From contig JBDSHN010000085.1 in the NCBI GenBank assembly GCA_039918435.1, forward strand, positions 12,666 to 76,665: 64,000 bases of DNA. Direction: 5' to 3'. The first letter of the stretch is position 1. Each line of letters opens with the position of its first letter. This stretch comes from Bacteroidia bacterium (GTDB lineage Bacteria; Bacteroidota; Bacteroidia; Palsa-965). Below the pieces are notes generated by a model. That model did no database searches, was not told the DNA's origin, and saw only the letters and a list, made by a program, of their open reading frames with translations. Below are positions 3,041 through 20,393 of the stretch, piece by piece. Made by a program: the position numbers and the translations under genes.

Positions 3041-3076
3041 TTATTTATCCACGCAAAATTTTGCGTGGATAAATAA
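3041..3076. terminator. perfect 36-bp palindrome, probable bidirectional terminator
   Basis: TTATTTATCCACGCAAAATTTTGCGTGGATAAATAA lies immediately after the 2555..3031 CDS, and its last bases form a 3' T-run. Confidence 0.5.
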
Positions 3077-3546: not shown

Positions 3547-3554
3547 TATCTTTG
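3547..3554 (+). promoter_or_regulatory. candidate Bacteroidota -7 promoter element (TAnnTTTG)
   Basis: TATCTTTG lies about 29 nt upstream of the GTG start at 3584. The identical octamer sits at the same distance upstream of yidC. Confidence 0.3.
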
Positions 3555-3583
3555 TCCTACCTCTCATTTGCTATCATCTGAAC

Positions 3584-4633: not shown

Positions 4634-4635
4634 AA

Positions 4636-5601: not shown

Positions 5602-5700
5602 GGAAGAAATCGCACAGGAAATCCACCATTTCCACGGCACGAACTACGGGTTATTCCGAAGAGTAATTTCCGATCTGACAAAATCGTAATTCTAAATCCT

Positions 5701-6474
5701 TCAAGGAATAATTTTATATTTCTCTGCAGCCTCCACGCGTGTGCAGGAATTAAAATGCCACCACTCCGTCTGTATTCCGAAAAATCCAGCCTGCCTCATT
5801 ACGCTGCGAAGGAGTTCGCGGTTGAATACTTCGCGTTGAGTCAGTATGCCGTTTTCAAGCAGCTCTTTTTCTTTTACCGGGTGCGCTTTTTCACCAAAAA
5901 AATCAAATGCCGTTCCCATATCAAGCGCAATTCCATTTTCATCAATGATCGAGAGATCTACTGCCGCGCCGTAATTATGCAGCGAACCTCTTTCCGGATT
6001 AGAAAGGTATTTTGTTTTTTCTCCACGCGGCATATCAAGCGTATCCCACATCAGCTGTTGAATATGCACAGGACGTGAAGCATCATATACAATAAGCGAA
6101 TAAAACGGGTAACGCTCTCTTAATTTTTTTTGCGCCATAACCAGTTTTTCCGCCACTTCGGGCTGCAAATAACACGCATTAAAATCACCATACATATCCA
6201 GCCCGATGAAATTATTGATTGATGAGTAGCGCAGTTCAACAACAATTTCAGAATCCAGGTCATGAATATTGACAAGCCCCATTTCAATCAGCTGTTTTTC
6301 AATTGTTGAAATTTCAGGAGTCGCTTTATCTTCCACGCTTGCATTAACGCTATCTGGCTTTTTTTCAACTATAATTTTTTCCTCCGGCACATATCGTTCA
6401 TCGCTGTTGTTCGTTTGCCCGAAACAGCCAATCAGCACCAACGGAAAAGCAAAAAGTAAAAATCTGATGTTCAC
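5701..6474 (-). CDS. M15-family metallopeptidase (D-Ala-D-Ala dipeptidase VanX/DdpX-like), lipoprotein
   Basis: Lipoprotein-type signal LVLIGCFGQ. SLHNYGAAVD matches the M15 SxHxxGxAxD motif. Confidence 0.55.
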   Translation of the reverse strand: MNIRFLLFAFPLVLIGCFGQTNNSDERYVPEEKIIVEKKPDSVNASVEDKATPEISTIEKQLIEMGLVNIHDLDSEIVVELRYSSINNFIGLDMYGDFNACYLQPEVAEKLVMAQKKLRERYPFYSLIVYDASRPVHIQQLMWDTLDMPRGEKTKYLSNPERGSLHNYGAAVDLSIIDENGIALDMGTAFDFFGEKAHPVKEKELLENGILTQREVFNRELLRSVMRQAGFFGIQTEWWHFNSCTRVEAAEKYKIIP

Positions 6475-6740
6475 GACATAAATGTACCTAAGGCAGCCTG
6501 ATAGCTGAAAATTTCGAACAAAAAAAACAAGAACTTTATACTCACCCCTACCCTCCCATCAATAATCCCCAATTACCATCACTAATCACCGATTACCAAT
6601 CACTACCCACCAATCACCTCCGCCGCGGCGGACACTTATTACCTTTTTCAGCCAATCACCCCGCATAACCACCGTTCAAAAAACAATGTATGCCAATAGC
6701 CTGAGAATGTTTATTTTCGGGCTTTCTAAACCACCTATAA

Positions 6741-8789
6741 ATGAAACGTCAACTCATACTTATCGGTCTTGTGGCCGGTGCCGGATTATTCACACTGGCA
6801 TTCAAAGAAAATTTAACAGGCGCAGGCACATATAAAGCTGTTGATCCTGCCAATTTTAATACCAGCGTTCGTCCGCAGGATGATTTTTATGAATATGTAA
6901 ACGGAAACTGGATCAAAAAAAATCCGATTCCTGCTACAGAAACCGGTTGGGGAAATTTTAATGTGCTCAATGAAAAAAGCCAGGCAGCGCTGCGCACCAT
7001 CTGCGAAGAATCAGCTGCTAATATGAAAGCTGTTGCAGGATCCAACGAACAAAAGATCGGCGACTTTTTTGCTTCCGGAATGGATTCTACTGCCATCGAA
7101 ACGGAAAAGCTGTATGCGATTCAGCCTATGCTGGACAGGATCAACCAGATGAAATTTCCTGCTGATATTACATTGACCATCGCGTCATTACATAAAGTGC
7201 AGGCGGGTGCCGGATTCGGATTTTTTGTAATGGCGGATATGAAAGACAGCAAGGTGAATATGCCTTACCTTTTTCAGAATGGCCTCGGTCTTCCTGAAAA
7301 AGAGTATTACACAAGCGATGATACCAAAGCATTTCGTGAAGGTTACAAAACCCATCTTGAAAACATGTTTGTGCTGATGGGCGATGATAATGCTACAGCC
7401 AAACAGAATGCAATTATGGTTTTTGATTTTGAAAAGAAACTTGCTGATTCAAGCATGTCGGCAGTTGAAATGCGCGATCAGGAAAAGCAATACAACAAAA
7501 TGACGATTGCAGAAGTGAAGCAGCTTGCTCCTGATTTTTCATGGCCGGTTTATTTCAAAACACTCCAGGCACCGGAAATGAAAGAGATCATTGTTGCACA
7601 GCCTTCTTTTATTCGTCAGTTCAATCACATGATCACATCAGAATCGATGGCTGCATGGAAAGCATATTTACGCTGGCACCTGGTTCACCTGTGTGCACCA
7701 AAATTGTACAAACCTATTGCGGATGAAAATTTTGCTTTTTACGGAACAGCATTAAGCGGTGCGCAAAAACAACAGCCACGCTGGAAAAGAGTGCTTGCTA
7801 CAACGGATGGCGCATTAGGCGAAGCGGTGGGACAGTTATATGTTGCAAAAAACTTCAGCGAAGAATCAAAAAAGCGCGTGAATGTAATGGTGGATAACCT
7901 CATGGCTTCTTATACAGAGCGTATCAACTCACGCGACTGGATGAGCGAACCGACAAAAAAGGCAGCACTTACCAAACTCGGAACAATTCTGCGCAAGCTT
8001 GGGTTTCCTGATAAATGGAGAGATTATTCAGGACTTAACATTAACCGCAAATCTTATGTGATGAACTTCCTTCATTCGAACAGCTTTGATGTTACTTACA
8101 ACCTGAATAAGCTGAACAAGCCTGTGGATCGTATGGAATGGGGAATGACACCGGCAACAATCAATGCCTATTACAATCCTTCCAACAACGAAATCGTATT
8201 TCCGGCAGCGATCATGCAGGCTCCATTCTTCGATGCGCGTGCTGATGATGCTGTAAATTACGGTGCAATGGGCGCAATTATCGGCCACGAGCTGACACAT
8301 GGTTTCGACGACCAGGGATCTATGTTTGACTCTGAAGGAAACATGAAAAACTGGTGGAGTGAAGATGACACAAAGCAATTCAATTCGAAAACAAAGCAGC
8401 TCGTAAACCAGTTCAATAATTTTGTGGCGATCGACAGCATTAACCTGCATGTGAATGGCGAACTCACTTTAGGTGAAAACATCGCTGACCTTGGCGGACT
8501 GACTATTGCTTATTACGCTTACAAACATTCTTTAATTGGTAAAGAAATACCTGCTAAAATTGACGGATTTACCGGCGAGCAGCGCTTCTTTATTTCATGG
8601 GCACAAGGCTGGAGAAACAGTCAGCGTCCGAATGCGTTGATCAATATGGTGAAAACCAACCCGCATTCGCCAGCTAAATTCCGCGTGCTGGGACCACTTT
8701 CAAACATGCAGGAATTTTACGATGCATTCGGTGTAATGCCAACCGACAAAATGTACCGCGCACCTGAGGATCGTGTTTTAATCTGGTAA
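6741..8789 (+). CDS. M13-family zinc metallopeptidase (neprilysin/PepO-like)
   Basis: HELTHGFDDQG (HExxH), GENIADLGG and NAYY motifs. 682 aa with a signal peptide. Confidence 0.8.
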   Translation: MKRQLILIGLVAGAGLFTLAFKENLTGAGTYKAVDPANFNTSVRPQDDFYEYVNGNWIKKNPIPATETGWGNFNVLNEKSQAALRTICEESAANMKAVAGSNEQKIGDFFASGMDSTAIETEKLYAIQPMLDRINQMKFPADITLTIASLHKVQAGAGFGFFVMADMKDSKVNMPYLFQNGLGLPEKEYYTSDDTKAFREGYKTHLENMFVLMGDDNATAKQNAIMVFDFEKKLADSSMSAVEMRDQEKQYNKMTIAEVKQLAPDFSWPVYFKTLQAPEMKEIIVAQPSFIRQFNHMITSESMAAWKAYLRWHLVHLCAPKLYKPIADENFAFYGTALSGAQKQQPRWKRVLATTDGALGEAVGQLYVAKNFSEESKKRVNVMVDNLMASYTERINSRDWMSEPTKKAALTKLGTILRKLGFPDKWRDYSGLNINRKSYVMNFLHSNSFDVTYNLNKLNKPVDRMEWGMTPATINAYYNPSNNEIVFPAAIMQAPFFDARADDAVNYGAMGAIIGHELTHGFDDQGSMFDSEGNMKNWWSEDDTKQFNSKTKQLVNQFNNFVAIDSINLHVNGELTLGENIADLGGLTIAYYAYKHSLIGKEIPAKIDGFTGEQRFFISWAQGWRNSQRPNALINMVKTNPHSPAKFRVLGPLSNMQEFYDAFGVMPTDKMYRAPEDRVLIW

Positions 8790-9040
8790 AAAACGAAAAT
8801 CTTAAAAGAAAGCCTGTTCTGCAAAGAGCGGGCTTTTTTTTGGAGCGAAAGGAGCAGGCAATCCACCGCGGCGGAGGAGACAGGATCCTGTATAATTGAA
8901 AGATATCAGGGGAAAAGAGAATAAGGCACAACATTATTATTCCCGTTATCTAAAATAATACAGCAATTCATACGACCTTATTATAAATGATACAGCCATT
9001 AACCTTTCCCTGCCGTCTTTCTTGCTGCCCCTCTTTTTTC

Positions 9041-9095
9041 CTCCGCCGCGGCGGATTTCCTGCCCCTCTTTTCCTGCCCTTCCGCCGCGGCGGAT
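9041..9095. repeat. two tandem copies of the dispersed intergenic element (TCCGCCGCGGCGGATTTCCTGCCCC)
   Basis: CTCCGCCGCGGCGGATTTCCTGCCCCTCTTTTCCTGCCCTTCCGCCGCGGCGGATTTCCTGCCCC lies about 80 nt upstream of yidC. Confidence 0.7.
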
Positions 9096-9137
9096 TTCCT
9101 GCCCCTTACTTTCATGCAAATTTCTCCTGTTAATAAG

Positions 9138-9145
9138 TATCTTTG
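9138..9145 (+). promoter_or_regulatory. candidate -7 promoter element TATCTTTG upstream of yidC
   Basis: The TAnnTTTG consensus lies about 27 nt upstream of the ATG at 9172. Confidence 0.3.
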
Positions 9146-9171
9146 CGCCCTCTAAGTAACCAATACATTAA

Positions 9172-11091
9172 ATGGACAAAAAATCGATCCTTGGCTTTGT
9201 TCTCATTGCAGTAATTCTTGTGGTGTGGATGACGATCAATTCCAGCAACACGGCAAAAGATGCTGCATTAAAAAAGCGCTATGATGACTCCATTGCATTA
9301 ACAACTGCAAATCAGAAAGCGATGGCAGACGCAATGGCAAAACACAAATCTGACAGCATTGCCTTGCTTCCAAAAGATACAGCACGAATTGCAGGAGCAG
9401 ATTCTACAGCAGTTGCGCCGAAGCCAAAAGTATACAGCGTATTCAGCACTGTTTCTACCGACAATACGCCGGTAGTAATTGAAAATGAAAAAATAAAAGC
9501 AACTATTTTTCCTTTAGGCGGGCGCATTGGCCAGGTAGAGCTGAAAGGTTTGAAAACCTCTTCGGGAAAACCACTTATTCTTTTCTATCCTGATTCAACT
9601 CATTTTGGTGTTTCGTTTTTTGATAAGGATCGCAGGCGTTTAAATACAGATTCGCTTTATTTCAAAATAGAAGGGAAAGGATTTGCTGTAGGCGGAAATG
9701 ACTCGAATGCAATCAGCGTTCGTTTGTATGCAGATACAACACAGGCCAAATACATTGAATACCGCTATACGCTTCGTGGAAATTCGTATTTGCTTGGCTG
9801 CACCATTTCTTTTATAGGCCTGAATGAAGTATTTCCATCAGACCAGAGTTATGTAGATCTGAATTGGTCGATGAATGCACCATCGCAGGAAAAGAGTGTT
9901 GTAAACGAACGCGCAGTTGCATCTGTATTTTACAATTTTGTGGGTGAAGAAGGAATTGAAAATCTCTCGCACACGGAAGATGAAAAGAAAGACCTTACCG
10001 GTGAGATCAAATGGATTTCCTTTAAGCAACAATATTTTTCTTCAGTGCTTATTGCGGGAACAAAATTCAATAACGGCGTAAGTGTTGCCGTGACCAAGCC
10101 TTCTGATCCGTTTACAGTAAAAGGTATGAGCACGATTGTTCCTATTGCAATCGGAAGATCAGCGCAGGAAAGTTTCCCTATGAGTTTTTATTTCGGACCA
10201 AATAAGTTTTCAGAATTAAAAGCACAAGGCATTCACCTTGAACGTCAAATTGATTTAGGCTGGGGAATTTTCGGATGGCTGAACCGTTTTCTTTTTATTC
10301 CGTTATTCTCCTTCCTAGGAAATAATATTGTGAGCTATGGACTTGTAATCCTTTTGCTCACGATCATTGTAAAAATTATAATGTTTCCGATTGCTTATAA
10401 ATCGTTCCTTTCTTCTGCAAAAATGCGTGTGCTGAAACCGGAGATAGAAGAGATAAACGAAAAATTCGGAAAAGACGATCCGATGAAAAAGCAACAGGCT
10501 ACAATGGCACTTTACAAAAAGGCCGGTGTCAATCCTGCAGCAGGATGTATTCCTTTGCTTTTGCAAATTCCAATTCTCTTCTCGCTTATCCGCCTTTTTC
10601 CTGCTGCATTTGAATTACGACAGCAATCTTTCCTCTGGGCAACCGATCTTTCTACGTATGATTCCATTTGGGATTTCGGATTCAAAATTCCATTCTACGG
10701 CGATCACATGAGCTTGTTCGCATTGTTGATGACGGTTTCCACATTGCTGTACACGTGGATGAATCAGCAAATGTTATCACCAGGAAGCAACCAATTGCCG
10801 GGAATGAAATGGCTGATCTATTTAATGCCCGTTATGTTCCTTGGTTTCCTTAATTCTTACTCTGCCGCGCTGAGCTATTATTATTTCTTAAGCAACATCA
10901 TCAGCTTTGGCCAGATGTTTTTCATGCAGCGTTTCGTAGATCACGATGCCATCCGCGCCAAGATTGATATGAACAAGCTCAAGCCGGTGAAACAATCCGG
11001 ATTCATGCAGCGTCTCGAACAGGCACAAAAGAAACGTGTAGAGCAAATGAAACAGCAGCAGGGAACGTCCAATAAAGGGAAGAAAAAATAA
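9172..11091 (+). CDS. yidC: membrane protein insertase YidC (long Bacteroidota form)
   Basis: 639 aa with N-terminal TM, a large periplasmic domain and a C-terminal 5-TM core carrying the conserved PLLLQIPILFSLI segment. Confidence 0.85.
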   Translation: MDKKSILGFVLIAVILVVWMTINSSNTAKDAALKKRYDDSIALTTANQKAMADAMAKHKSDSIALLPKDTARIAGADSTAVAPKPKVYSVFSTVSTDNTPVVIENEKIKATIFPLGGRIGQVELKGLKTSSGKPLILFYPDSTHFGVSFFDKDRRRLNTDSLYFKIEGKGFAVGGNDSNAISVRLYADTTQAKYIEYRYTLRGNSYLLGCTISFIGLNEVFPSDQSYVDLNWSMNAPSQEKSVVNERAVASVFYNFVGEEGIENLSHTEDEKKDLTGEIKWISFKQQYFSSVLIAGTKFNNGVSVAVTKPSDPFTVKGMSTIVPIAIGRSAQESFPMSFYFGPNKFSELKAQGIHLERQIDLGWGIFGWLNRFLFIPLFSFLGNNIVSYGLVILLLTIIVKIIMFPIAYKSFLSSAKMRVLKPEIEEINEKFGKDDPMKKQQATMALYKKAGVNPAAGCIPLLLQIPILFSLIRLFPAAFELRQQSFLWATDLSTYDSIWDFGFKIPFYGDHMSLFALLMTVSTLLYTWMNQQMLSPGSNQLPGMKWLIYLMPVMFLGFLNSYSAALSYYYFLSNIISFGQMFFMQRFVDHDAIRAKIDMNKLKPVKQSGFMQRLEQAQKKRVEQMKQQQGTSNKGKKK

Positions 11092-11100
11092 AAGGGGTAC

Positions 11101-11118
11101 GTTCCGCCGCGGCGGAAC
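11101..11118. repeat. perfect 18-bp palindrome GTTCCGCCGCGGCGGAAC (left border of the low-GC islet, 10 nt after the yidC stop)
   Basis: Seen directly. The flank AAAAGGGGTACG-[palindrome]-GAATTAAAA matches, as a reverse complement, the copy at 13020-13058. Confidence 0.7.
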
Positions 11119-11140
11119 GAATTAAAACGAATTTACGAAT

Positions 11141-11193
11141 ACAAAAGTTGAAAGGGCGGCCACATAATGTGAACCGCCCTTTTCAACTTTTGT
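11141..11193 (+). terminator. hairpin with 18-bp stem (ACAAAAGTTGAAAGGGCGG / CCGCCCTTTTCAACTTTTGT)
   Basis: Inverted repeat seen directly. It lies downstream of yidC within the AT-rich islet border. Confidence 0.5.
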
Positions 11194-11499
11194 ATATTCG
11201 TTGAATTTACCCCCTAAAGTGCTGATGGCTTATAAAGTCCCCTGTTGGTAACTACCCCCGCCTAACGGTCTGCTAACGAATGGGAGCGGGTCAACTAAAC
11301 TTTTATTGCCTATGTCTGATACAAGTAAAATTTTTAATCTAGGAACGTTATTATTCCTAATATTAAAATTGAAGAAATTATAAGAGTTAAAAGGCCAACT
11401 ATTTTTATTTAATAATGTGCAGGTAATATTTCCAAATATGTAGCAAATTGAAACTATTGTAATAAAAATACCACGTCTACTCATAATTTACTTTTTTAA

Positions 11500-12630
11500 T
11501 TAAACAGCAAAGCCGCATTCCATTTGAGTTAGCTGAACATTTTTACCAGCTACTAATTCACAAGTTACTCCTTGGGCAATTGTAAGCATAGGATGCGTAT
11601 GCCCACAATCAAAATTCAAAATAATTGGGAACTTAGTTGTTGTGGGGATAATTTCAGTTATTAAGTCTTCATAACTTAAATCAGAATCACCTGAAAAATT
11701 TTCCGGCTTCGAAATTATTAACGCCTTTATTCCATCAAAAATCCCCATCTGCTTGAGTTGGGTAAGTTGTTTTTCTTCGTTTGCCATACTGGTATTCATC
11801 TGTTCTAAGCAAAGAATTGCACCATCAAGTGAGGGGAAATAAGCAGTACCAACAAGTGAAAGAAGCGCGTTCAAGTTGTAACTAAATATTTTTCCTTTTG
11901 CATTCCCTGCTCTTAAAACCTGCCATCCCTTATTCTTTTTGAAATTCCTTTTAACCGATGTCCACAATGGTTTTGTGGCATCAATAAACTGATCAGTATA
12001 TTTCTCAGGAGTTGGAAATGAATATGATTTAAATGCACCTTTAAAACCGGTTTGTATAAGGAAATTTTCAAAAGTAAATTTATCCGGACGGGGATATGTA
12101 CCAAAGGATGGAATAATCGCCGGCCCATAAAATGTACACAAACCACACTTTGTATTTAATGCTGCATGAATACTTGTAATATCACTGTAGCCGGAAATAA
12201 TTTTAGGATATTTTCGGATATAATCGTAATCAATGGATGGTAAAATGCTAGCAGAGTTTGATCCTCCTATAGAAAAAATGATTGCAGAAACTTTAGTATC
12301 CTTATAGAGATCATTAAACTCTTTTGCCCGATCCGAGATTGAGCCACTTCTATATCCTTGAGATAAAAAGGATGCAGTCAAATCACCAAGCTTAATTTTG
12401 AAACCTTGTTTTTCAAGGAAACTTATACCCTTCAAAAACTTACTTTTTAAAATAACATTACCGGGCATGCTAGGTGTCGCAATACCTATACAAGCTCCTT
12501 GTTTAAGAGAGTTTGGCTTAAGTAAATTAACTTTTCTTTTTGAAGAGAGCGACATGATATCTAAGGTGTTTTCTATTTTTGATGAATGTGGACTCATAGT
12601 AATTAAATTTTCTAAAAACAATTTCCGCAC
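11500..12630 (-). CDS. S66-family serine peptidase (LD-carboxypeptidase LdcA / microcin-C immunity MccF-like)
   Basis: CIGIATPS near the N-terminus and a GYSDITS nucleophile motif; FDCGHTHP near the C-terminus. The true start may be an internal Met (MSLSS...). Lies in a low-GC islet. Confidence 0.6.
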   Translation of the reverse strand: MRKLFLENLITMSPHSSKIENTLDIMSLSSKRKVNLLKPNSLKQGACIGIATPSMPGNVILKSKFLKGISFLEKQGFKIKLGDLTASFLSQGYRSGSISDRAKEFNDLYKDTKVSAIIFSIGGSNSASILPSIDYDYIRKYPKIISGYSDITSIHAALNTKCGLCTFYGPAIIPSFGTYPRPDKFTFENFLIQTGFKGAFKSYSFPTPEKYTDQFIDATKPLWTSVKRNFKKNKGWQVLRAGNAKGKIFSYNLNALLSLVGTAYFPSLDGAILCLEQMNTSMANEEKQLTQLKQMGIFDGIKALIISKPENFSGDSDLSYEDLITEIIPTTTKFPIILNFDCGHTHPMLTIAQGVTCELVAGKNVQLTQMECGFAV

Positions 12631-12771
12631 ATTCTTTGATCAACAGCTTATCGCTATTTTTATATCTAGCACCAAGAAAAATATCGAGCTGTACCAATGT
12701 AGGCATTTTCGCATTGTTCATTGGATAGTCATTCCAATAATGCAAATCAAAATCAAGTTCTTTATGAAGAT

Positions 12772-13008
12772 TTATCCAATCCTCTTTAAAATATGGTCTG
12801 CAATCTTTTTTAATTCCTTTCGTCTTCCTGCAATTACTACATCAAAATGCGCGTTGCCACTAAGCAACCCGTCTGAATCATTATAAATCCAAACAACAGA
12901 TTTTATTTTTACTGCTGCTTTTTGTTCTTTGAATTCTTTATAGATTCTTTTTTCAACAACCAAAGCAACTCTTTCCTTTTCACTTTCTATGATATTGATA
13001 ATATCCAA
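12772..13008 (-). CDS. hypothetical small protein (78 aa) in low-GC islet
   Basis: Intact ORF co-oriented with hldD and the S66 peptidase. No recognisable motif. Confidence 0.3.
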   Translation of the reverse strand: MDIINIIESEKERVALVVEKRIYKEFKEQKAAVKIKSVVWIYNDSDGLLSGNAHFDVVIAGRRKELKKIADHILKRIG

Positions 13009-13029
13009 ATTCGTATATTCTTTTTGATT

Positions 13030-13048
13030 CGTTCCGCCGCGGCGGATC
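13030..13048. repeat. palindrome copy CGTTCCGCCGCGGCGGATCG (right border of the low-GC islet, abutting the hldD stop)
   Basis: Reverse complement of 13017-13060 is TTAAAAGGGTACGATCCGCCGCGGCGGAACGAATCAAAAAG, about 90% identical to 11089-11128. Confidence 0.7.
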
Positions 13049-13056
13049 GTACCCTT

Positions 13057-14022
13057 TTAATAATACCTGCCATCCCGCAAATAATTCTGCACATAATCCA
13101 GAATACCGTCTTCGAGCGAATAAAATTCTTTTTCGTAACCCGCATTTTTCAGCTTCGTCATATTCGCTTCGGTGAAATACTGGTACTTGTCTCGGATATC
13201 AAGCGGCGTATCGATGAAAGAAATATTTTCCTCTTTTCCCATGGCAGCGAATGTTCCTTTTGCGAGATCAAGAAAGCTGCGCGATTTTCCGGTGCCGAGA
13301 TTGTAAATTCCGGATGCAGGATAATTTTTGAAAAGGAACACACATACTTCAATCACATCTTTCACATAAATAAAATCGCGCAATTGTTCGCCGTCTTTAT
13401 AATCGGGATTATGCGAACGGAAAAGTTTCATGGCGCCGGAAGAAGAAATCTGCCCGAACGCATGAAAAATAACGGACGCCATTCTTGATTTATGATATTC
13501 ATTGGGTCCGTACACATTGAAAAACTTCAACCCGTACCAATGTGGTGGCGCTGTTTTCTGCTGCAGCACCCATTTATCAAATTCATTCTTCGAATCGCCA
13601 TAAGGATTCAGCGGTGTTAGTTTTGAAACGAGAGAAGGATCATCATCATAACCATATTCGCCTAAACCATACGTTGCGGCAGAAGAAGCGTAGATAAGCG
13701 GAACCTGGTTTGCTGTGCAGATTTTCCAAATGTCTTTTGAATAATTGACATTGAGCCGGTCGAAAATTTCTTTGTCAAATTCTGTTGTATCTGTTCTTGC
13801 GCCGATATGGAAAACTACTTTTACTTTCTGCGCATTCGCCTCAAACCACTGCATAAATTCATCGCGATGAATGCGTTGCTTGTACCTTTTTCCTTCGAGG
13901 TTCAGATTTTTTGTATCGTCAGAAAAATCATCGACGAGAATAATATCTTCTAATCCGTCCGCATTAAGACGGCTTACGAGACATGAACCAATAAATCCAG
14001 CAGCACCAGTAACAATGATCAT
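13057..14022 (-). CDS. hldD: ADP-L-glycero-D-manno-heptose 6-epimerase
   Basis: N-terminus MIIVTGAAGFIGS...ILVDD Rossmann motif and overall SDR-extended pattern closely resemble HldD/RfaD. Confidence 0.7.
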   Translation of the reverse strand: MIIVTGAAGFIGSCLVSRLNADGLEDIILVDDFSDDTKNLNLEGKRYKQRIHRDEFMQWFEANAQKVKVVFHIGARTDTTEFDKEIFDRLNVNYSKDIWKICTANQVPLIYASSAATYGLGEYGYDDDPSLVSKLTPLNPYGDSKNEFDKWVLQQKTAPPHWYGLKFFNVYGPNEYHKSRMASVIFHAFGQISSSGAMKLFRSHNPDYKDGEQLRDFIYVKDVIEVCVFLFKNYPASGIYNLGTGKSRSFLDLAKGTFAAMGKEENISFIDTPLDIRDKYQYFTEANMTKLKNAGYEKEFYSLEDGILDYVQNYLRDGRYY

Positions 14023-14058
14023 TGCATTTTAATTTAAAGGTAAAACGACTATTGAAAA

Positions 14059-14835
14059 TTATATTTCATTCTTCTTCGGCCAGTTAAACAATTGTGATGT
14101 GATAACAGGCAGAATAAATATGCAGACAGTTAAAATCGAAATACCTGTATCAGCTGCATGTGAATCAAGAAAAACTGTTACAGCAGAATACGGATAGAAA
14201 TGTGTGAAGAGCGAACTTGTTAGTTTTAAGCCAAGAATAAGAATGACAATAAAAGCGCCGCTCGTGAGGAAAGAATACTTTTCCATCAGCTTAACAAATC
14301 CCTGTGCCACAAAACGCATTGCTAAAATTCCGATAAATACACCCGTGCAGATCAGCCAGATATTATCGGTGAATGCAACCGCTGCAAAAACATTATCGAT
14401 AGAAAAAGCAAGATCCATAATTTCCACCAGCACGATGGTCGCCCAAAGCGGACCTAAAAGTCCGAATGTTTTTTTGTAAAGCCAGTTGTCTTTTTTATTC
14501 AGCGTATCATCTTCCAGCTGCGGAGTAGATTTTGTGCGAAAATAATTTAAGCCGAGGTACAAAAGATAAATTCCGCCTGCACCTTTGAGCCACCAGACCT
14601 TCACCAGGTAGCTGGCAAGCAACAATGAAAATCCCCTGAAAATATAGGCACCAATGATTCCGTATTTCAGCGCTTTCCTGCGTTGATCTTTCGGAAGATC
14701 CATTACCATTGTTGCAAGCACCGCAGCATTATCAATGGAAAGAAGACTTTCAATCATGATAAGGTTCAGGATAATCAGCAACGCTTTTCCCGGATGATCG
14801 CCGATTATCTTGTGTAGTATTTCCATGCAGGCCAC
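14059..14835 (-). CDS. TerC-family integral membrane protein
   Basis: Multi-TM protein with repeated SIDN(A/V) motifs typical of TerC/YkoY-like proteins. Confidence 0.5.
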   Translation of the reverse strand: MACMEILHKIIGDHPGKALLIILNLIMIESLLSIDNAAVLATMVMDLPKDQRRKALKYGIIGAYIFRGFSLLLASYLVKVWWLKGAGGIYLLYLGLNYFRTKSTPQLEDDTLNKKDNWLYKKTFGLLGPLWATIVLVEIMDLAFSIDNVFAAVAFTDNIWLICTGVFIGILAMRFVAQGFVKLMEKYSFLTSGAFIVILILGLKLTSSLFTHFYPYSAVTVFLDSHAADTGISILTVCIFILPVITSQLFNWPKKNEI

Positions 14836-15007
14836 AAAGGTACGGAATTGGCGGGCTATGAAGGAAAGGAGTAAATTGTTGACTTAATTTAAGAGCATGA
14901 AAAATACGGCTTTACTGATTGACGAAAACGGCAGCCGGATTTCTCTTGAACCAGGAGATTATCATATTATTTGTTTTATAAAGAAGAGGAATTGATTAAT
15001 TAAACTG

Positions 15008-15844
15008 TTAATCCAGGAACAGCTTTATATCATTCGGAGGGATCACTCCTTTTTCTTTTGCCTTCTTAAATAAAGTGAGCACCGCTTTCCTTCCTTCTTT
15101 TCCAAGATCAATTGAAAACTCATTCACATAAAGATCGATGTGTTTGTACATTACTTCTTCGCTCATTTCCTGCGCATGTTCCCGCACATAAGGCAAACTC
15201 GCTTTACGATCAGCAAATGCAAATTCAACACTCTTTCGCAAGACACGGTTTACTTTTGCTTTTACTTCTTCCGGCAAAGAACGTTTAATTACGATGCCGC
15301 CAAGAGGAATTGGAGATTTTGTAGTGGTCTCCCAATATTCGCCGAGATCAATTATTTTCTTTAGTCCTTTTGCTTCGTAGGTAAAACGGTTTTCATGAAT
15401 GATCAATCCTGCATCGAACTCGTCATTCAAAACTGCATTTTCAATTTCAGAAAAAACAACTTCTGTTTTATCCGTGATCTCCGGGTAAGCAAGTCCAAGT
15501 AAAAAATTTGCCGTTGTAAACTTTCCGGGAATGGCGACAGAAATTTCCCCTTCCTCCAGTTCCTTCTTTTTGATTTCGGTTTTTGAGATCAGCAACGGAC
15601 CGCAATTTCTTCCCAATGCGCTACCTGCATCGAGCAAAACATACTTTTCGACGCAAAATGCAAAAGCATGATAACTCAGTTTTGTAATATCGATTTCACC
15701 TGCAAATGCACCTTTGTTCAGGCTTTCGACATCACCAAGATGAACATCGAATTCCAATCCTTCAAGATCGATTCGTTTATTCACAATTGCATCGAAAATG
15801 AAACAATCATTCGGACAAGGAGAAAAACCCAGTGTTAATCGCAC
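15008..15844 (-). CDS. mqnD: 1,4-dihydroxy-6-naphthoate synthase (futalosine pathway) MqnD-like
   Basis: N-terminus MRLTLGFSPCPNDCFIFDAIV matches the MqnA/MqnD family. 278 aa. Adjacent to an MqnB-like gene. Confidence 0.55.
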   Translation of the reverse strand: MRLTLGFSPCPNDCFIFDAIVNKRIDLEGLEFDVHLGDVESLNKGAFAGEIDITKLSYHAFAFCVEKYVLLDAGSALGRNCGPLLISKTEIKKKELEEGEISVAIPGKFTTANFLLGLAYPEITDKTEVVFSEIENAVLNDEFDAGLIIHENRFTYEAKGLKKIIDLGEYWETTTKSPIPLGGIVIKRSLPEEVKAKVNRVLRKSVEFAFADRKASLPYVREHAQEMSEEVMYKHIDLYVNEFSIDLGKEGRKAVLTLFKKAKEKGVIPPNDIKLFLD

Positions 15845-15845
15845 G

Positions 15846-16526
15846 TTACAGATTATTAATTATTTCAACCGCTTTTTCGTTCAGATTTTTTATTGCCAAT
15901 GCCATGTTCCAGTTTTCACGGTTCCGTTTTTCAATAACATTTGAAACCGAGCGGATCTGCGCACAGGGAATTTTGTCAATCATACATGCATAAAAAAATG
16001 CCGCGCCTTCCATACTTTCCACGTGCGGGTTCCAGCGCTTCACCACTTTTGCAATATTCGCTTCATTACCATGAGCTGTATTTACTGAAATTCCATTGAC
16101 ACCCGCCAGGTTCATGATCCGTTCGTAGTTTGGAAATGTCTGGTTCACGAGTTGTCCCCACATAAATGGAAATTCATTTTCTCCCAACAGGTTCAGTTCA
16201 TTCACGGACAGAAATTTCTCATCATCCTCCGCCCCGAGATCCGCAAAACGATCTGTCAATACATGAACGACTTTTCCAATCTCGATCGATTTGCTAAAGC
16301 TTCCGCAAACGCCTAAATTCAAAGCCGCATCATACTTTTTCGCCGATAAAGCCTTCGCAGTCCATGCAGCTGTTGCCACCATTCCCACTCCCGTGATCAA
16401 CACATCAAGGAAGTGCGGCCCATGACTATAAAATTTCATCCGCTGATCATTCTCCGAAATAAATTTCAACCGCGCCACCAGCGGAGCAATTTCCATGTAA
16501 GTAGCGGAGACGATGAGTAAGTTCAT
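15846..16526 (-). CDS. mqnB: futalosine hydrolase MqnB-like (PNP/MTA nucleosidase family)
   Basis: MNLLIVSATYMEIAP N-terminus is typical of the nucleosidase fold. Overlaps the mqnD stop by 1-2 nt. Confidence 0.55.
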   Translation of the reverse strand: MNLLIVSATYMEIAPLVARLKFISENDQRMKFYSHGPHFLDVLITGVGMVATAAWTAKALSAKKYDAALNLGVCGSFSKSIEIGKVVHVLTDRFADLGAEDDEKFLSVNELNLLGENEFPFMWGQLVNQTFPNYERIMNLAGVNGISVNTAHGNEANIAKVVKRWNPHVESMEGAAFFYACMIDKIPCAQIRSVSNVIEKRNRENWNMALAIKNLNEKAVEIINNL

Positions 16527-16687
16527 GGGTGGAGAAATTTAGGTGCAAAGGTAATCTTATTCGTAATCGAGGAAGCAGGAAAAAAGGTGGCAGGTGGCAG
16601 GAAAAAAAATGGGAAATATTCCCTAAAAAGCCTGCCTCCTGCCGCCTAATTTTCCTGCCCCTTTTTTCCTTTATCTTTGTACCCATT

Positions 16688-17101
16688 ATGATACACATCA
16701 CCAGAAGGGAAAGATTTACAGCTGCTCACAGGCTTTTTAAACCGGGATTAACTGATGCGCAGAACAGTGAAATGTTCGGCGGCTGCGCAAACCCGAATTG
16801 GCACGGACACAATTACGAACTTTTTATTACCATAAAAGGAAAAGTAAATCCGGAGCTCGGTTACGTGATTAACCTGAAAGACCTCAGCGCACTTCTGAAA
16901 GTAAAAGTCATTGATAAATTAGATCACCGCAACCTGAATATGGATGTGGATTTTCTTAAAAATATTATGACTTCAACAGAAAATGTTGCGATTGCGATCT
17001 GGAAAGAAATTGAACAACCGATAAAAGAAGTGGGTGCTACTTTGCATTGCGTGAAGCTGGTGGAAACTGAAAATAATTCAGTGGAATATTTTGGAGAATA
17101 A
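16688..17101 (+). CDS. queD: 6-carboxy-5,6,7,8-tetrahydropterin synthase / 6-pyruvoyl-tetrahydropterin synthase
   Basis: FTAAHRL...CANPNWHGHNYEL motif. Start placed at the internal Met because the upstream part of the tracked ORF is repeat-rich non-coding sequence. Confidence 0.75.
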   Translation: MIHITRRERFTAAHRLFKPGLTDAQNSEMFGGCANPNWHGHNYELFITIKGKVNPELGYVINLKDLSALLKVKVIDKLDHRNLNMDVDFLKNIMTSTENVAIAIWKEIEQPIKEVGATLHCVKLVETENNSVEYFGE

Positions 17102-17104
17102 TTA

Positions 17105-17734
17105 ATGTCCAAAAAACAAACTATGTCAGAAGAAGAATTCGGTTATAGAAAAATTGATAAATACAACGAGGCAACCATTGACAGCATCGCCGATAAATAC
17201 AGGAAAATTCTTGAAGAGATCGGCGAAGATCCTGTTCGTGAAGGTTTAGTGAAAACACCGGAGCGTGTTGCAAAAGCATTGCAATACCTCACGCATGGCT
17301 ATGATCTTGATCCGGGTGAAATTCTGCGGTCGGCGATGTTCACAGAAAAATATTCGCAGATGGTGATTGTAAAAGACATTGAAGTGTATTCTCTTTGCGA
17401 ACACCACATGCTTCCGTTTTTTGGCAAAGCGCATATTGCCTATATTCCGAATGGAAGCGTTGTTGGACTGAGCAAAATTCCGCGTGTTGTAGATGCATTC
17501 GCACGACGCTTACAAGTGCAGGAGCGTCTTACGGATCAGATCCGCGATTGCATACAGGAAACATTAAATCCGCTTGGTGTTGGCGTAGTTATTGAAGCTT
17601 CTCATTTGTGCATGCAGATGCGTGGAATTCAAAAGCAGAATTCAGTTACGACTACATCTGCTTTCACCGGTGAATTTCTGAAAGAAACAACCCGCTCCGA
17701 ATTCATTAAACTCATCGGTTCGAGATTGCATTAA
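17105..17734 (+). CDS. folE: GTP cyclohydrolase I
   Basis: [12 protein letters not shown] and [18 protein letters not shown] motifs. Confidence 0.85.
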
Positions 17735-17782
17735 CCGGAAATTCGTTTTAATTTTATTTTATCAAACCACAAAAAATAAAAC

Positions 17783-18529
17783 ATGAGCTACTACTCTCCA
17801 CAACAACAGCCCGGTCAGAATAATATGTACGGGCAAAATAACTTTATCGATAAAGAAGCTGTCTCAGCCGAAGCTGCAAAAGCATTTGTAACGCAAGTGT
17901 TCGGATGGATGTTTTTAGCGATGGTTCTTTCTGCAGGAATCGCTTACGCATTCGCTACTTCCGACTTGATTTATATGCTTTTCGACCATGTTACAGGTAA
18001 ACCAAGTGCATTTTTTTGGGTTGCATTGCTTAGCCCAATAGGTATTGTTTTACTGATGAACTTCGGTCTTGAGAAATTATCCTTTGGCGTAATCCTTCTG
18101 CTTTTCATTTCCTACGCTTCATTGATGGGAATAAGTCTCAGCACAATTTTCCTGGCATACGAACCATTGGCAATTGCTAAAGCTTTTGGAATAACTGCTG
18201 GTGCTTTTGGCGTAATGGCAGTGACTGGATACACGACAAAAACTGATCTTTCCAAATTTGGAATGATTATGATATTTGGTCTTGTTGGAATTGTTATCGC
18301 TTCTCTTTTTAACATGTTCGGATCGGCCAATTCGCAATTTTCGTTATTAATTGATATCGCCTGCATTATTGTTTTCACTGGTCTTATTGCATGGAAAATG
18401 CAAATGGTTCGTCAAATGGGAGAGCAAGTCGGAACTACTCAGCCAAAGCTTGCCGTTTTTATGGCGCTCAGCCTTTACATTACATTCATCAATCTTTTCC
18501 TTACCATTCTTCGCTTCATGCGCAGATAA
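17783..18529 (+). CDS. Bax inhibitor-1/YccA-family membrane protein
   Basis: Q/N-rich N-terminus followed by 7 predicted TM segments. Length and pattern fit the BI-1 family. Confidence 0.65.
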   Translation: MSYYSPQQQPGQNNMYGQNNFIDKEAVSAEAAKAFVTQVFGWMFLAMVLSAGIAYAFATSDLIYMLFDHVTGKPSAFFWVALLSPIGIVLLMNFGLEKLSFGVILLLFISYASLMGISLSTIFLAYEPLAIAKAFGITAGAFGVMAVTGYTTKTDLSKFGMIMIFGLVGIVIASLFNMFGSANSQFSLLIDIACIIVFTGLIAWKMQMVRQMGEQVGTTQPKLAVFMALSLYITFINLFLTILRFMRR

Positions 18530-18550
18530 ATTTGCAGAATAAAAAATACA

Positions 18551-18590
18551 AACAGCCATTCTCTTAAGTGAAATGGCTGTTTTTTTATTT
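18551..18590 (+). terminator. rho-independent terminator (AACAGCCATT ... AATGGCTGTT + T7)
   Basis: Perfect 10-bp stem followed by TTTTTTT, directly after the BI-1 gene. Confidence 0.65.
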
Positions 18591-18701
18591 ATTAAACTAT
18601 GTCTTATATGTCGCCTTTTGAAAGGGAAAACGTTTTCCGGGTTTTTAAATAATACGAATTGCAGTTCGTATATTCGTAAAAATCCGTAATTCGTACTTCC
18701 T

Positions 18702-19586: not shown

Positions 19587-19681
19587 GCCGTTTTAAGTTT
19601 TCGGTTGTCTTTACGCTTAACAGGTTTTCAATCACTCTCAAATTCACAATTTTTTTCCTGAAATAGAGTTATATTTATACT

Positions 19682-20290: not shown

Positions 20291-20393
20291 GATTTATATA
20301 ATTCTCTTTTCTGCAAACTTTTCTGTGACAGCAATTCGCGCCAGAATTTTCAATCTTGAATTTTGTCCATTGGATCCATACGGGGAATATTGA

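What the first reader, a model, noticed from the sequence alone, without database searches (positions are those of the whole stretch)
11092..13060. 1.9-kb low-GC islet carrying an S66 (LdcA/MccF-like) peptidase, bounded by inverted copies of a ~40-bp palindrome-containing module at the ends of yidC and hldD
The yidC stop is followed by AAAAGGGGTACGTTCCGCCGCGGCGGAACGAATTAAAACG (11089-11128). The reverse complement of 13017-13060 is TTAAAAGGGTACGATCCGCCGCGGCGGAACGAATCAAAAAG, and it starts at the hldD stop codon. So both flanking genes end with the same module in the same gene-relative orientation. Without the intervening DNA they would be convergent neighbours. The interior (11130-13016) is visibly more AT-rich than its surroundings, with A/T-ending codons and a 270-bp AT-rich non-coding stretch at 11200-11500. 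It encodes on the minus strand a 78-aa ORF, a possible 72-aa ORF, and a 376-aa S66 serine peptidase (GYSDITS nucleophile motif). S66 proteins are either murein LD-carboxypeptidases or MccF-type immunity enzymes that hydrolyse aminoacyl-nucleotide antibiotics. A compositionally foreign copy between duplicated border modules suggests a horizontally acquired resistance or immunity cassette, inserted into or alongside a pre-existing intergenic element and probably read through from hldD.
Basis: partly seen in the sequence, partly recalled or inferred. Interest (0 to 1): 0.5.

Follow-up and report, generated by a model that had tools for sequence, protein, structure and literature searches.

The report
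Orphan MccF-like immunity gene islet
A 1.8-kb low-GC insertion between two convergent housekeeping genes of an uncultured Bacteroidia bacterium holds one intact gene, a MccF-type peptidase that probably detoxifies microcin-C-like antibiotics; the matching "border modules" are the arms of an older palindromic terminator spacer, so this is an ordinary small genomic islet.

Summary
A 53-nt inverted repeat (89% match) abuts the yidC and hldD stop codons, and the DNA between has the lowest GC in the window.

Five relatives (hldD 83-92% identical) have yidC and hldD as convergent neighbours 123-131 nt apart. In the two closest, that spacer is one long hairpin: arm, terminator hairpin, arm. So the "modules" pre-date the insertion and are not ends of a mobile element. 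Only the 16-20-nt CCGCCGCGGCGG palindrome inside them is specific to this lineage. A sixth relative has a different gene inserted in the same spacer.

The S66 protein belongs to the MccF clade, not LdcA:
- E. coli MccF scores 222 bits, LdcA 72 bits.
- The NCBIfam LdcA model is far below its cut-off.
- The Ser/Glu/His triad is conserved, and dN/dS is about 0.1.

A 74%-identical homolog sits in a MccB-like / MccD-like methyltransferase / S66 cluster. The window keeps only the last ~89 codons of that methyltransferase. The other small ORFs are also gene fragments.

Best reading: an orphan immunity gene left from a microcin-C-like cluster, inserted at a palindromic hot spot. It is a new member of a known kind and of modest interest. 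Activity and the insertion mechanism are untested.

The parts
9172..11091 (+). yidC (membrane protein insertase), flanking core gene
   Evidence: Pfam 60KD_IMP and YidC_periplas match. The gene is syntenic in relatives at about 82% nucleotide identity.
11090..11140 (.). Arm A1, the yidC-side arm of the ancestral spacer palindrome. It contains the lineage-specific palindrome CGTTCCGCCGCGGCGGAACG at 11100-11119.
   Evidence: This is one arm of the inverted repeat found. It aligns to the yidC-side arms of L165 and L173, which lack the 16-20-nt GC palindrome.
11139..11195 (.). Ancestral bidirectional terminator-like hairpin (AAAAGTTGAAAGGGCGG...CCGCCCTTTTCAACTTTT)
   Evidence: The arms are 18 nt and 94% complementary. 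The hairpin is conserved in the empty spacers of L165, L173 and L167. The region 11085-11215 folds at -60.7 kcal/mol, z -9.3.
11196..11215 (.). Arm A2, a degenerate third arm copy without the GC palindrome. It completes a long hairpin with A1 and is in direct orientation relative to A3.
   Evidence: It pairs with A1 in the minimum-free-energy fold. It aligns to the other arms. It shares 12 of 14 nt (TTyGTATATTCkTT) with A3. The evidence is weak because the match is short.
11216..11286 (.). GC-richer segment of about 70 nt, origin unknown. It lies between A2 and the point where the protein match of ORF84 to P0244 ends.
   Evidence: GC is 0.505 over 11196-11290. Nothing similar was found in any fetched locus, and there is no significant similarity to the spacers of relatives.
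11230..11484 (-). ORF84, the 5' fragment of a hypothetical gene. Codons 1-66 (11287-11484) match the first 66 residues of the 160-aa protein P0244; the remainder is out-of-context read-on.
   Evidence: P0244 matches residues 1-66 of both proteins at 95% identity, E 8e-34; P0245 (135 aa) matches at 44%. No Pfam family was found.
11500..12555 (-). Intact S66 serine peptidase of the MccF clade (351 aa; nucleophile in GYSDITS, Glu in LEQ, His in GHTHP)
   Evidence: Both Pfam S66 domains match. E. coli MccF scores 222 bits and B. anthracis MccF 200 bits, against LdcA at 72 bits. The LdcA equivalog scores 104 bits against a cut-off of 378. The triad residues S124, E251 and H319 are invariant. dN/dS is 0.12 and 0.086. 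GC and GC3 are the lowest in the window.
12527..12799 (-). 3' remnant (about 89 codons) of a MccD-like class I SAM methyltransferase. It overlaps the S66 start, as the intact gene does in L171.
   Evidence: tblastn with P0241 aligns its residues 170-258 to window 12799-12533 at 61% identity, E 4e-34. P0241 carries Methyltransf Pfam families. P0241 matches E. coli MccD at 25% identity over 174 aa, E 4e-19.
12796..13008 (-). Fragment of an unrelated hypothetical gene (the '78-aa ORF'), truncated at the junction with arm A3
   Evidence: tblastn with P0242 aligns its residues 49-119 to window 13008-12796 at 79% identity, E 2e-31. P0242 lies in a different context.
13009..13059 (.). Arm A3, the hldD-side arm of the spacer palindrome. 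It contains the GC palindrome CGTTCCGCCGCGGCGGATCG at 13030-13049 and abuts the hldD stop.
   Evidence: This is the other arm of the inverted repeat found. It aligns to the hldD-side arms of L165 and L173.
13057..14022 (-). hldD-like ADP-glyceromanno-heptose 6-epimerase, flanking core gene
   Evidence: Pfam Epimerase matches. Sources name the homologs ADP-L-glycero-D-manno-heptose 6-epimerase. The gene is syntenic in relatives.

Best explanation
The region is a small, decayed horizontally acquired islet of about 1.8 kb, roughly 11205-13008.

**Where it sits.** It lies inside an old, long palindromic terminator spacer between the convergent core genes yidC and hldD of an uncultured Bacteroidia bacterium. 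In the two closest relatives that spacer is arm, terminator hairpin, inverted arm, with each arm abutting a stop codon. The insertion separated the hldD-side arm from the hairpin. That is why both genes now 'end with the same module'. The 16-20-nt CCGCCGCGGCGG palindrome inside both arms is a separate addition specific to this lineage. It belongs to a motif found 12 times in the window's intergenic DNA.

**What it carries.** The only intact gene is a MccF-clade S66 serine peptidase under purifying selection. Immediately upstream is the 3' stump of a MccD-like methyltransferase. In a homologous locus that methyltransferase is intact and preceded by a MccB-like adenylyltransferase. The islet is therefore best read as the remnant of a microcin-C-like (peptidyl-nucleotide antibiotic) gene cluster from which only the immunity gene has been kept.

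**Inferred function.** By analogy with E. coli and B. anthracis MccF, the enzyme would hydrolyse the carboxamide bond between the aminoacyl or peptidyl part and the nucleotide part of McC-like toxins taken up from neighbours. This would be 'cheater' or orphan immunity. Expression is probably by read-through from hldD.

**Shown:** the insertion, the pre-existing arms, MccF-clade membership, the gene fragments, and purifying selection.
**Inferred:** the substrate, the immunity role, the read-through, and the way the DNA got in. The entry route was probably illegitimate or short-homology recombination at the arm repeats, or erosion of a larger element.
For: **Empty sites with full flanking synteny.** They occur in L165 (hldD 92% identical, 129-nt gap), L173 (91%), L174-L177 (88%), JGI contig p7fZJB69 (88%) and L169 (83%). 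The flanks are colinear at about 82% nucleotide identity up to 11101/11195 and again from 13058.

**Pre-existing arms.** The empty spacers of L165 and L173 contain both arms and the hairpin. Each folds as one hairpin of about 120 nt, at -63 and -61 kcal/mol, z about -9.

**Hot spot.** L167 has a different insertion, a 1019-aa SprB/CHU_C gene, in the same spacer.

**Composition.** S66 is the GC and GC3 outlier, and the islet is the GC minimum of the window.

**MccF clade.** The MccF versus LdcA scores are, and the triad is invariant.

**mcc-like cluster in L171.**
- The best PDB hit of the ThiF protein is MccB, at 127 bits against 72 for ThiF.
- It is 33% identical to E. coli MccB.
- The methyltransferase matches MccD at E 4e-19.
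- The order ThiF, methyltransferase, S66 can be compared with the E. coli mcc operon annotation.

**Fragments in the window.**

**Selection.** dN/dS is 0.12 and 0.086.

**Mobility.** The closest S66 genes (96% and 84% amino-acid identity) lie in other contexts, and DNA homology to L001 is limited to 11470-12651.

**Literature.**
- MccF cleaves the carboxamide bond of intact and processed McC (PMC9239234).
- Stand-alone MccF homologs are common, and the B. anthracis one confers McC resistance while LdcA does not (PMC8323819, PMC4010828).
Against: - No biochemical or expression data exist.
- Two substrate-contact residues of E. coli MccF are not conserved at the aligned positions. W186 aligns to Ala, although a nearly invariant Trp lies 5 residues downstream. 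K247 aligns to Thr. The substrate may therefore differ.
- Linkage to MccB is seen for only one homolog (L171/L172, 74% identity). The two closest homologs (L001, L002) are also orphans.
- There is no MccB/ThiF within the 64-kb window, so self-immunity for a cluster elsewhere in the genome cannot be excluded.
- No Bacteroidetes-type -7 motif was found upstream, so expression is assumed.
- The left boundary and the role of arm A2 rest on short, degenerate matches.
- The donor and the recombination mechanism are unknown.
Confidence: 0.7

Rival explanations
1. The inverted modules are the ends of a discrete mobile cassette. Candidates are terminal inverted repeats of a non-autonomous transposon, or recombination sites like the pdif sites that bound Acinetobacter dif modules. 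In this reading the cassette moved the S66 gene as a unit.
For: A 53-nt, 89% inverted repeat brackets the segment. The segment is foreign in composition. The S66 gene is found in several contexts.
Against: - Both arms are present, already inverted, in the empty spacers of L165 and L173.
- The other S66 loci (L001, L002, L171) have no such repeat and no CCGCCGCGGCGG motif.
- Homology to L001 ends well inside the islet.
- The interior ends cut through genes.
- No transposase or recombinase is present.
Confidence: 0.04
2. The present islet is the eroded stump of a much larger element, an integrative island or mcc-carrying element with its own integrase. That element integrated site-specifically into the palindromic spacer. 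Arms A2 and A3 would be attL/attR-like direct repeats, and later deletions removed everything except S66.
For: - A2 and A3 are short direct repeats flanking the insert.
- Three truncated genes surround one intact gene.
- A second, independent insertion uses the same spacer in L167, with extra spacer copies.
- mcc operons often ride on mobile elements (PMC9239234).
Against: - No integrase remnant was found.
- The A2/A3 match is only about 14 nt (12 of 14) and lies within a hexamer-repeat family that also occurs elsewhere.
- No larger version of the island was found in any relative.
Confidence: 0.25
3. The S66 enzyme is not an antibiotic-immunity protein. It would be a housekeeping or metabolic peptidase, for example an LD-carboxypeptidase for murein recycling or a hydrolase for another small peptide conjugate, that happens to be accessory.
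For: - Source annotations call the homologs 'muramoyltetrapeptide carboxypeptidase LdcA'.
- The W186 and K247 equivalents differ.
- There is no mcc cluster nearby.
- Many stand-alone MccF homologs have no tested function (PMC4010828).
Against: - The protein scores 222 bits to MccF against 72 to LdcA.
- It scores 104 bits against a cut-off of 378 for the LdcA equivalog.
- It is physically linked to MccD-like and MccB-like genes in L171 and to a MccD-like stump here.
- It is absent from five relatives, so it is not housekeeping.
- LdcA does not protect against McC, whereas the stand-alone B. anthracis MccF does (PMC8323819).
Confidence: 0.25
4. The junction is an assembly artefact, with a chimeric join at the palindrome.
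For: Independent Logan contigs from SRR26386594 break inside the right-hand repeat. L004 ends at 13051 and L003 starts at 13029.
Against: - L004 is 100% identical to the window across yidC, the left arm, the whole islet and 43 nt of the right arm, including the variants specific to that arm.
- L003 is identical from 13029 onwards.
- The two overlap by 23 nt.
- A break at an inverted repeat or palindrome is expected for a de Bruijn assembler.
Confidence: 0.03

Closest known systems
E. coli MccF (S66 peptidase of the plasmid mcc operon; PDB 3TLA/3TLB/3TLC)
   Same: - It has the same fold family and is the best solved-structure match, at 222 bits and about 37-38% identity.
- The Ser-Glu-His triad and the N220 equivalent are conserved.
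- A homolog is linked to MccB-like and MccD-like genes, as in the E. coli operon.
   Different: - The window gene is chromosomal and orphan, with no mccABCDE nearby.
- W186 aligns to Ala and K247 to Thr.
- The cognate antibiotic is unknown.
- The host is a member of the Bacteroidia.
Stand-alone MccF of Bacillus anthracis (PDB 3GJZ) and other stand-alone MccF homologs
   Same: It is a chromosomal S66 gene outside any mcc cluster and scores 200 bits. Such genes are known to confer McC resistance when expressed (PMC8323819).
   Different: The window gene is clearly a recent insertion that carries a stump of a biosynthetic gene. This documents descent from a cluster rather than a long-resident core gene.
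LdcA, murein tetrapeptide LD-carboxypeptidase (E. coli, PDB 5Z01; NCBIfam NF008424)
   Same: It belongs to the S66 family and has the same two Pfam domains.
   Different: It scores only 72 bits, and the window protein reaches 104 bits against a 378-bit cut-off on the LdcA equivalog. LdcA does not protect against McC (PMC8323819).
Genes bounded by inverted recombination sites (pdif modules of Acinetobacter plasmids; own knowledge) and TIR-bounded non-autonomous transposons
   Same: An accessory or resistance-type gene is bracketed by inverted copies of a palindrome-containing sequence.
   Different: Here the inverted copies pre-exist at the empty site as the two halves of one terminator palindrome. 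They are not found around the gene elsewhere.
Chromosomal integration hot spots between conserved core genes (own knowledge of the genomic-island literature)
   Same: The same core-gene junction holds nothing, S66, or a SprB-like gene in different relatives.
   Different: The hot spot is a roughly 125-nt perfect-ish palindrome spanning stop codon to stop codon, not a tRNA gene or a known att site.

Membership tests
Peptidase S66 (MEROPS S66 / Pfam PF02016 + PF17676) | Both the N- and C-terminal S66 domains score above the gathering threshold | tested here: met
   PF02016 scores 110.6 bits (cut-off 25) and PF17676 scores 84.4 bits (cut-off 23.7).
Peptidase S66 | Ser-His-Glu catalytic triad | tested here: met
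   S124 (GYSD), E251 and H319 (GHTHP) are invariant in the alignment with E. coli MccF and 10 homologs. They align to MccF S118, E243 and H311 (residue roles from PMC8323819 and own knowledge).
MccF clade (microcin C immunity peptidases) | Closer in sequence to experimentally validated MccF proteins than to LdcA | tested here: met
   E. coli MccF scores 222 bits and B. anthracis MccF 200 bits, against 126 for the MccF-like BA_5613 and 72 for LdcA.
MccF clade | Nucleobase-stacking Trp (W186 in E. coli MccF) and the acidic-side-chain contacts N220 and K247 | tested here: inconclusive
   N220 is conserved. W186 aligns to a nearly invariant Ala, with a nearly invariant Trp 5 residues later in the same loop. 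K247 aligns to Thr.
MccF clade | Genetic linkage to an mcc-type biosynthetic cluster (MccB adenylyltransferase) | tested here: inconclusive
   The window has no ThiF/MccB in 64 kb, only a MccD-like stump. The 74% homolog in L171/L172 lies directly after MccB-like and MccD-like genes.
MccF clade | Hydrolysis of the aminoacyl- or peptidyl-nucleotide carboxamide bond, and protection against McC | not testable with these tools
   This needs enzyme assays or an MIC test.
LdcA (murein tetrapeptide LD-carboxypeptidase equivalog NF008424) | Score above the NCBIfam equivalog cut-off | tested here: not met
   The score is 104 bits against a cut-off of 378.
TIR-bounded transposable element / recombination-site-bounded module | The terminal repeats belong to the element, so they are absent from the empty site and travel with the cargo | tested here: not met
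   Both arms are present in the empty spacers of L165 and L173. They are absent from the other S66 loci.
TIR-bounded transposable element / integrative element | An encoded transposase or integrase, or a recognisable remnant of one | tested here: not met
   No such family was found in any islet ORF or frame.
Horizontally acquired genomic islet | Absent from the orthologous site in relatives, atypical composition, and closest homologs in unrelated contexts | tested here: met
   Searches show the empty sites. One search shows the composition. Searches show the other contexts.

The most novel reading that the evidence does not exclude
The yidC-hldD spacer may be an unrecognised kind of recurrent insertion site: a stop-to-stop palindrome of about 125 nt, built from (T/A)ACGAA hexamer-repeat arms around a terminator. 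Hairpin or cruciform fragility there would repeatedly capture foreign DNA. Two independent insertions are seen (S66 here, a SprB-like gene in L167), each with extra arm copies.

Separately, the 14-16-nt palindrome (T)TCCGCCGCGGCGGA(A) may be a tiny self-spreading insertion. It entered both arms at the same position, possibly with a CG/ACG duplication. It has colonised about 12 intergenic sites per 64 kb since this lineage split from relatives at 82% nucleotide identity. Sister lineages carry a different palindrome (TCCCGATAGCTATCGGGA) in the same places.
Probability: 0.15. Interest if true: 0.6.

Novelty: new member of a known kind. Interest (0 to 1): 0.3.

Why it matters
Stand-alone MccF homologs are known, but how they arise is usually only assumed. 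Here an intact MccF-type gene still carries the stump of its MccD-like neighbour, and the empty site is visible in five relatives. Together these give a clean natural example of an immunity gene outliving its antibiotic cluster, that is, orphan or 'cheater' immunity. They also hint that microcin-C-like peptidyl-nucleotide antibiotics circulate among environmental Bacteroidia, a group not discussed in the McC literature I could search. For annotation, proteins of this kind are labelled 'LdcA, peptidoglycan recycling' by sources, and that label is probably wrong. The palindromic spacer and the lineage-specific GC palindromes are a side lead on how intergenic repeats shape insertion sites.

Tried and rejected
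**Searches that gave nothing useful**
- **hldD scans.** Scans of genome contigs and metagenome contigs found relatives only up to 74% and 70% identity, with no yidC-hldD synteny. They did not help locate an empty site. The protein-database search plus contig look-ups did.
- **Module in other collections.** The 18-mer module is absent from viral contigs. Islet DNA has no match in phage records. The only plasmid matches are distant ones, below 40% identity, and include E. coli mcc plasmids.
- **RNA families.** Rfam gave no credible RNA family, only one chance-level hit at E 0.42.
- **Promoters and terminators.**
  - The sigma-70 promoter and terminator scan found nothing above the shuffled background.
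  - No Bacteroidetes TAnnTTTG motif lies within 600 nt upstream of S66.
- **Small ORFs.** Pfam and NCBIfam searches of ORF78, ORF72, their frameshift fusion and ORF84 found no family.
- **Paralogs.** There is no second S66 paralog in the window.

**Ideas considered and dropped**
- **attB x attP model.** I first thought the two modules were attL/attR hybrids from recombination between two palindromes at the CCGCCGCGGCGG core. I dropped this when the empty sites showed both arms pre-existing and lacking that core.
- **Target-site duplication.** The 8-bp GAATATAC direct repeat at the junctions could be a target-site duplication, but it lies inside a repeat-rich arm and cannot be told apart from arm homology.
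- **Segment 11216-11290.** Its resemblance to the GCTAAT-type arms of L174 and L169 is not above the shuffled background.
- **Deletion in relatives.** Loss in relatives rather than insertion here is rejected on parsimony, because five lineages at different depths are empty, and on composition.

**Not obtained**
- The papers of Nocek 2012 and Tikhonov 2010 are not held in the library.

Full report

Yes.
- **Repeat.** The repeat finder reports inverted arms at 11088-11140 and 13009-13061. They are 53 nt long, 89% complementary and 1868 nt apart. The core CGTTCCGCCGCGGCGGAACG lies at 11100-11119, and a one-mismatch copy lies at 13030-13049. The 18-mer is expected 0.01 times by chance in the window.
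- **Stop codons.** The yidC ORF ends at 11091 and the hldD ORF (minus strand) ends at 13057-13059. Both stop codons touch the repeat in the same gene-relative orientation.
- **Flanking genes.** Pfam confirms YidC (60KD_IMP and YidC_periplas) and an NAD-dependent epimerase. Sources name homologs of the epimerase ADP-L-glycero-D-manno-heptose 6-epimerase.
- **Composition.** The interior has GC 0.335 against 0.414 for the window, and it contains the GC minimum of all 1813-nt sliding windows. The S66 ORF has the lowest GC (z -3.2) and GC3 (z -3.1) of 49 ORFs.
- **S66.** The ORF has both Pfam S66 domains. Homologs and an independent gene call put its start at the ATG at 12555, giving 351 aa.

**2. 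What is the host?**

The window is identical to two Logan contigs from run SRR26386594. L004 covers 3048-13051 and L003 covers 13029-22022. Both stop inside the right-hand repeat, as expected for a short-read assembler at an inverted repeat. The best species-representative genome has only 74% hldD identity and is a Bacteroidia MAG. The protein database holds closer relatives at 83-92%.

**3. The empty site**

Contig look-ups for the closer hldD proteins show the whole neighbourhood conserved: CHU_C, PorP, M15, M13, yidC, hldD, terC, VitK2 and onward. Nucleotide identity is about 82%.

yidC and hldD are convergent neighbours, separated by only 123-131 nt, in:
- L165 (92%)
- L173 (91%)
- L174-L177 and one JGI contig (88%)
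- L169 (83%)

Alignment with the window stops at 11101/11195 and resumes at 13058. The segment is therefore an insertion in the window's lineage.

L167 (86%) has a different insertion in the same spacer, a 1019-aa SprB/CHU_C gene, again with extra partial copies of spacer sequence. The junction is a hot spot.

**4. What the 'modules' are**

- **Empty spacers.** In L165 and L173 the spacer reads: hldD stop, GGGGAAC(G/T)AATTACGAAT...CGAATA(TACGAAT), terminator hairpin (GAAAGGGCGAC...GTCGCCCTTT), inverted arm, yidC stop. Each folds as a single hairpin of about 120 nt, at -63 and -61 kcal/mol, z about -9.
- **Match to the window.** The window's hairpin at 11139-11195 is that terminator. Arm A1 (11090-11140) and arm A3 (13009-13059) are the two ancestral arms. 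The inverted repeat therefore pre-dates the insertion and is not the border of a cassette.
- **What is new.** The new element is a GC palindrome of 16-20 nt, (CG)TTCCGCCGCGGCGGAA(CG), sitting at the same position in both arms. It is absent from every relative.
- **The GC palindrome family.** Its 12-nt core occurs 12 times in the window with at most one mismatch, against 0.02 expected. From their positions relative to the ORFs of at least 100 aa, these copies lie between genes, mostly upstream of them. L165 and L167 carry another palindrome, TCCCGATAGCTATCGGGA, in equivalent places.
- **Third arm copy.** A degenerate third arm copy without the palindrome, A2, lies at 11196-11215. Because of it, 11092-11215 alone still folds into a complete long hairpin (-60.7 kcal/mol, z -9.3).
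- **Direct repeat.** A2 and A3 are in direct orientation around the insert, but they share only about 14 nt (12 of 14). This could be an att-like or target duplication. It could equally be homology within the hexamer-repeat family, which also occurs at 18653-18690 and in other intergenic regions of relatives.

**5. What is inside**

Reading the minus strand from hldD, the islet contains:
- **(i) 13008-12796:** residues 49-119 of a hypothetical protein (P0242, 79% identity), cut at the arm.
- **(ii) 12799-12533:** residues 170-258 of a 260-aa class I SAM methyltransferase (P0241, 61% identity).
- **(iii) 12555-11500:** the intact S66 gene.
- **(iv) 11484-11287:** the first 66 codons (95% identity) of a 160-aa hypothetical protein (P0244).
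- **(v) 11286-11216:** about 70 nt of unknown, GC-richer DNA.

S66 is thus the only intact gene among three fragments.

It is under purifying selection, with dN/dS 0.12 against L001 and 0.086 against L002.

Its closest relatives lie in unrelated contexts, next to OMP-like, Por-secretion or HTH genes. These are P0001 (96% amino-acid and 95% nucleotide identity) and P0002 (84%). DNA homology to L001 covers only 11470-12651. In L001 the gene is also GC-poor relative to its contig, and it carries an even shorter methyltransferase stump.

**6. LdcA or MccF?**

Against solved structures the protein scores as follows:

| Target | Bits |
|---|---|
| E. coli MccF | 222 (E 1.6e-64) |
| B. anthracis MccF | 200 |
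| 'MccF-like' BA_5613 | 126 |
| E. coli LdcA | 72 |

- The NCBIfam LdcA equivalog gives 104 bits against a cut-off of 378.
- The Ser/Glu/His triad and the N220 equivalent are invariant.
- MccF W186, which stacks on adenine (PMC8323819), aligns to Ala, with a nearly invariant Trp five residues on. K247 aligns to Thr. The protein is in the MccF clade, but its substrate may differ.

The decisive context comes from L171/L172, where the S66 homolog is 74% identical. There the gene order is ThiF-family protein, intact 260-aa methyltransferase, S66, DUF1761.
- The best structural relative of the ThiF protein is MccB, at 127 bits against 89 for PaaA and 72 for ThiF. It is 33% identical to E. coli MccB.
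- The methyltransferase matches E. coli MccD at E 4e-19.
- The annotated E. coli mcc plasmid has ThiF, MFS, SAM-methyltransferase, GNAT and S66.

The window's islet is therefore the remnant of an mcc-like cluster that has kept only the immunity gene. No ThiF/MccB and no second S66 gene occur in the 64 kb.

**7. Mechanism**

From the literature:
- Stand-alone homologs are numerous, and the B. anthracis one confers resistance, whereas LdcA does not (PMC8323819, PMC4010828).

I infer the same chemistry here, giving protection against peptidyl-nucleotide antibiotics made by neighbours.

I found no own promoter motif and no terminator between hldD and S66. The A3 hairpin is weak (-12 kcal/mol, z -1) and lacks a U-tract. 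Read-through from hldD is therefore plausible but untested.

How the DNA entered is unresolved. Either short-homology or illegitimate recombination at the arm repeats of a fragile long palindrome, or erosion of a larger integrated element, would fit.

**8. Comparison and novelty**

This is a new member of a known kind: a stand-alone MccF homolog on a small genomic islet. Interest is modest.

Two points are worth noting:
- The trace of cluster decay is unusually clear.
- The side observation that a stop-to-stop palindromic spacer is used twice independently as an insertion site and is colonised by lineage-specific GC palindromes.

**9. What led nowhere**

- The two collection scans found only distant relatives.
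- There were no viral or phage matches and no Rfam family.
- The small ORFs match no Pfam or NCBIfam family.
- The 11216-11290 segment has no significant similarity to the spacers of relatives.
- My initial attB x attP hybrid model was dropped once the empty sites were seen.

Noticed in passing
window 6620, 8863, 9043, 9082, 11104, 13034, 43007, 50724, 55554, 58009, 61148, 61256: The GC palindrome (T)CCGCCGCGGCGG(A) occurs 12 times with at most 1 mismatch, against 0.02 expected. By position relative to the ORF list the copies lie between genes, mostly upstream of them, and often have the flank GGCAGGnAAT-core-AGG. It is absent from the syntenic loci of relatives at 82% nucleotide identity. Several copies have short direct repeats on both sides (TTTCC, CACCA, ACG), which hints at insertion. 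What spreads it is unknown.
   Followed up: partly
L165 about 12560-12580 (M15-M13 intergenic) and L167 7999-8020: Sister lineages carry a different perfect palindrome, TCCCGATAGCTATCGGGA. It occupies the same intergenic regions, and in L167 the same position in the spacer arm, where the window has CCGCCGCGGCGG.
   Followed up: partly
L167 7967-11404 (GCA_031412295.1, JANOCU010000010): An independent insertion of a 1019-aa SprB/CHU_C/DUF7948 gene lies in the same yidC-hldD spacer. It is accompanied by extra partial copies of the hairpin and arms, and by a run of TTTCGTA-type repeats next to yidC.
   Followed up: partly
window 18650-18700; L167 1113-1138; L169 3413-3456: Clusters of the (T/A)ACGAA / TTCGT(A/T) hexamer repeats that build the spacer arms also occur in other intergenic regions. 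One lies directly upstream of the fabD-like gene at 18702. The arms therefore belong to a dispersed repeat family in this clade. L174 and L169 use a GCTAAT-type hexamer instead.
   Followed up: partly
window 8840-9140 (M13 peptidase to yidC intergenic): This is a repeat-rich upstream region of yidC, with CCTGCC/GGCAGG units and two tandem copies of CCGCCGCGGCGGATTTCCTGCCCCT. The orthologous region of L174 is filled with CCGCCGCTGCCGCTTCTTTCCTGCC tandem repeats. The last roughly 60 nt before the yidC start are conserved.
   Followed up: no
L171 1-4136 (ENA ERZ27336865 NODE_11594) and L172: A candidate microcin-C-like cluster in an uncultured bacterium: a MccB-like ThiF protein (5' end cut by the contig end), a MccD-like methyltransferase, a MccF-like S66, DUF1761 and a 214-aa unknown. 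The precursor peptide and exporter were not seen because the contig is short.
   Followed up: partly
L001 2285-3729: About 1.4 kb downstream of the 96%-identical S66 gene has no ORF longer than 80 aa. It may be decayed or non-coding DNA.
   Followed up: no
window 11216-11286: A segment of about 70 nt (GC 0.505 over 11196-11290) lies between arm A2 and the point where ORF84's match to P0244 ends. It has no detectable relative in any fetched locus.
   Followed up: partly
window 13029-13051 (ends of L003 and L004): The public short-read (Logan) assembly of the same organism breaks exactly in the right-hand palindrome. In short-read MAGs this islet would sit at a contig end and its linkage to hldD would be lost.
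   Followed up: yes
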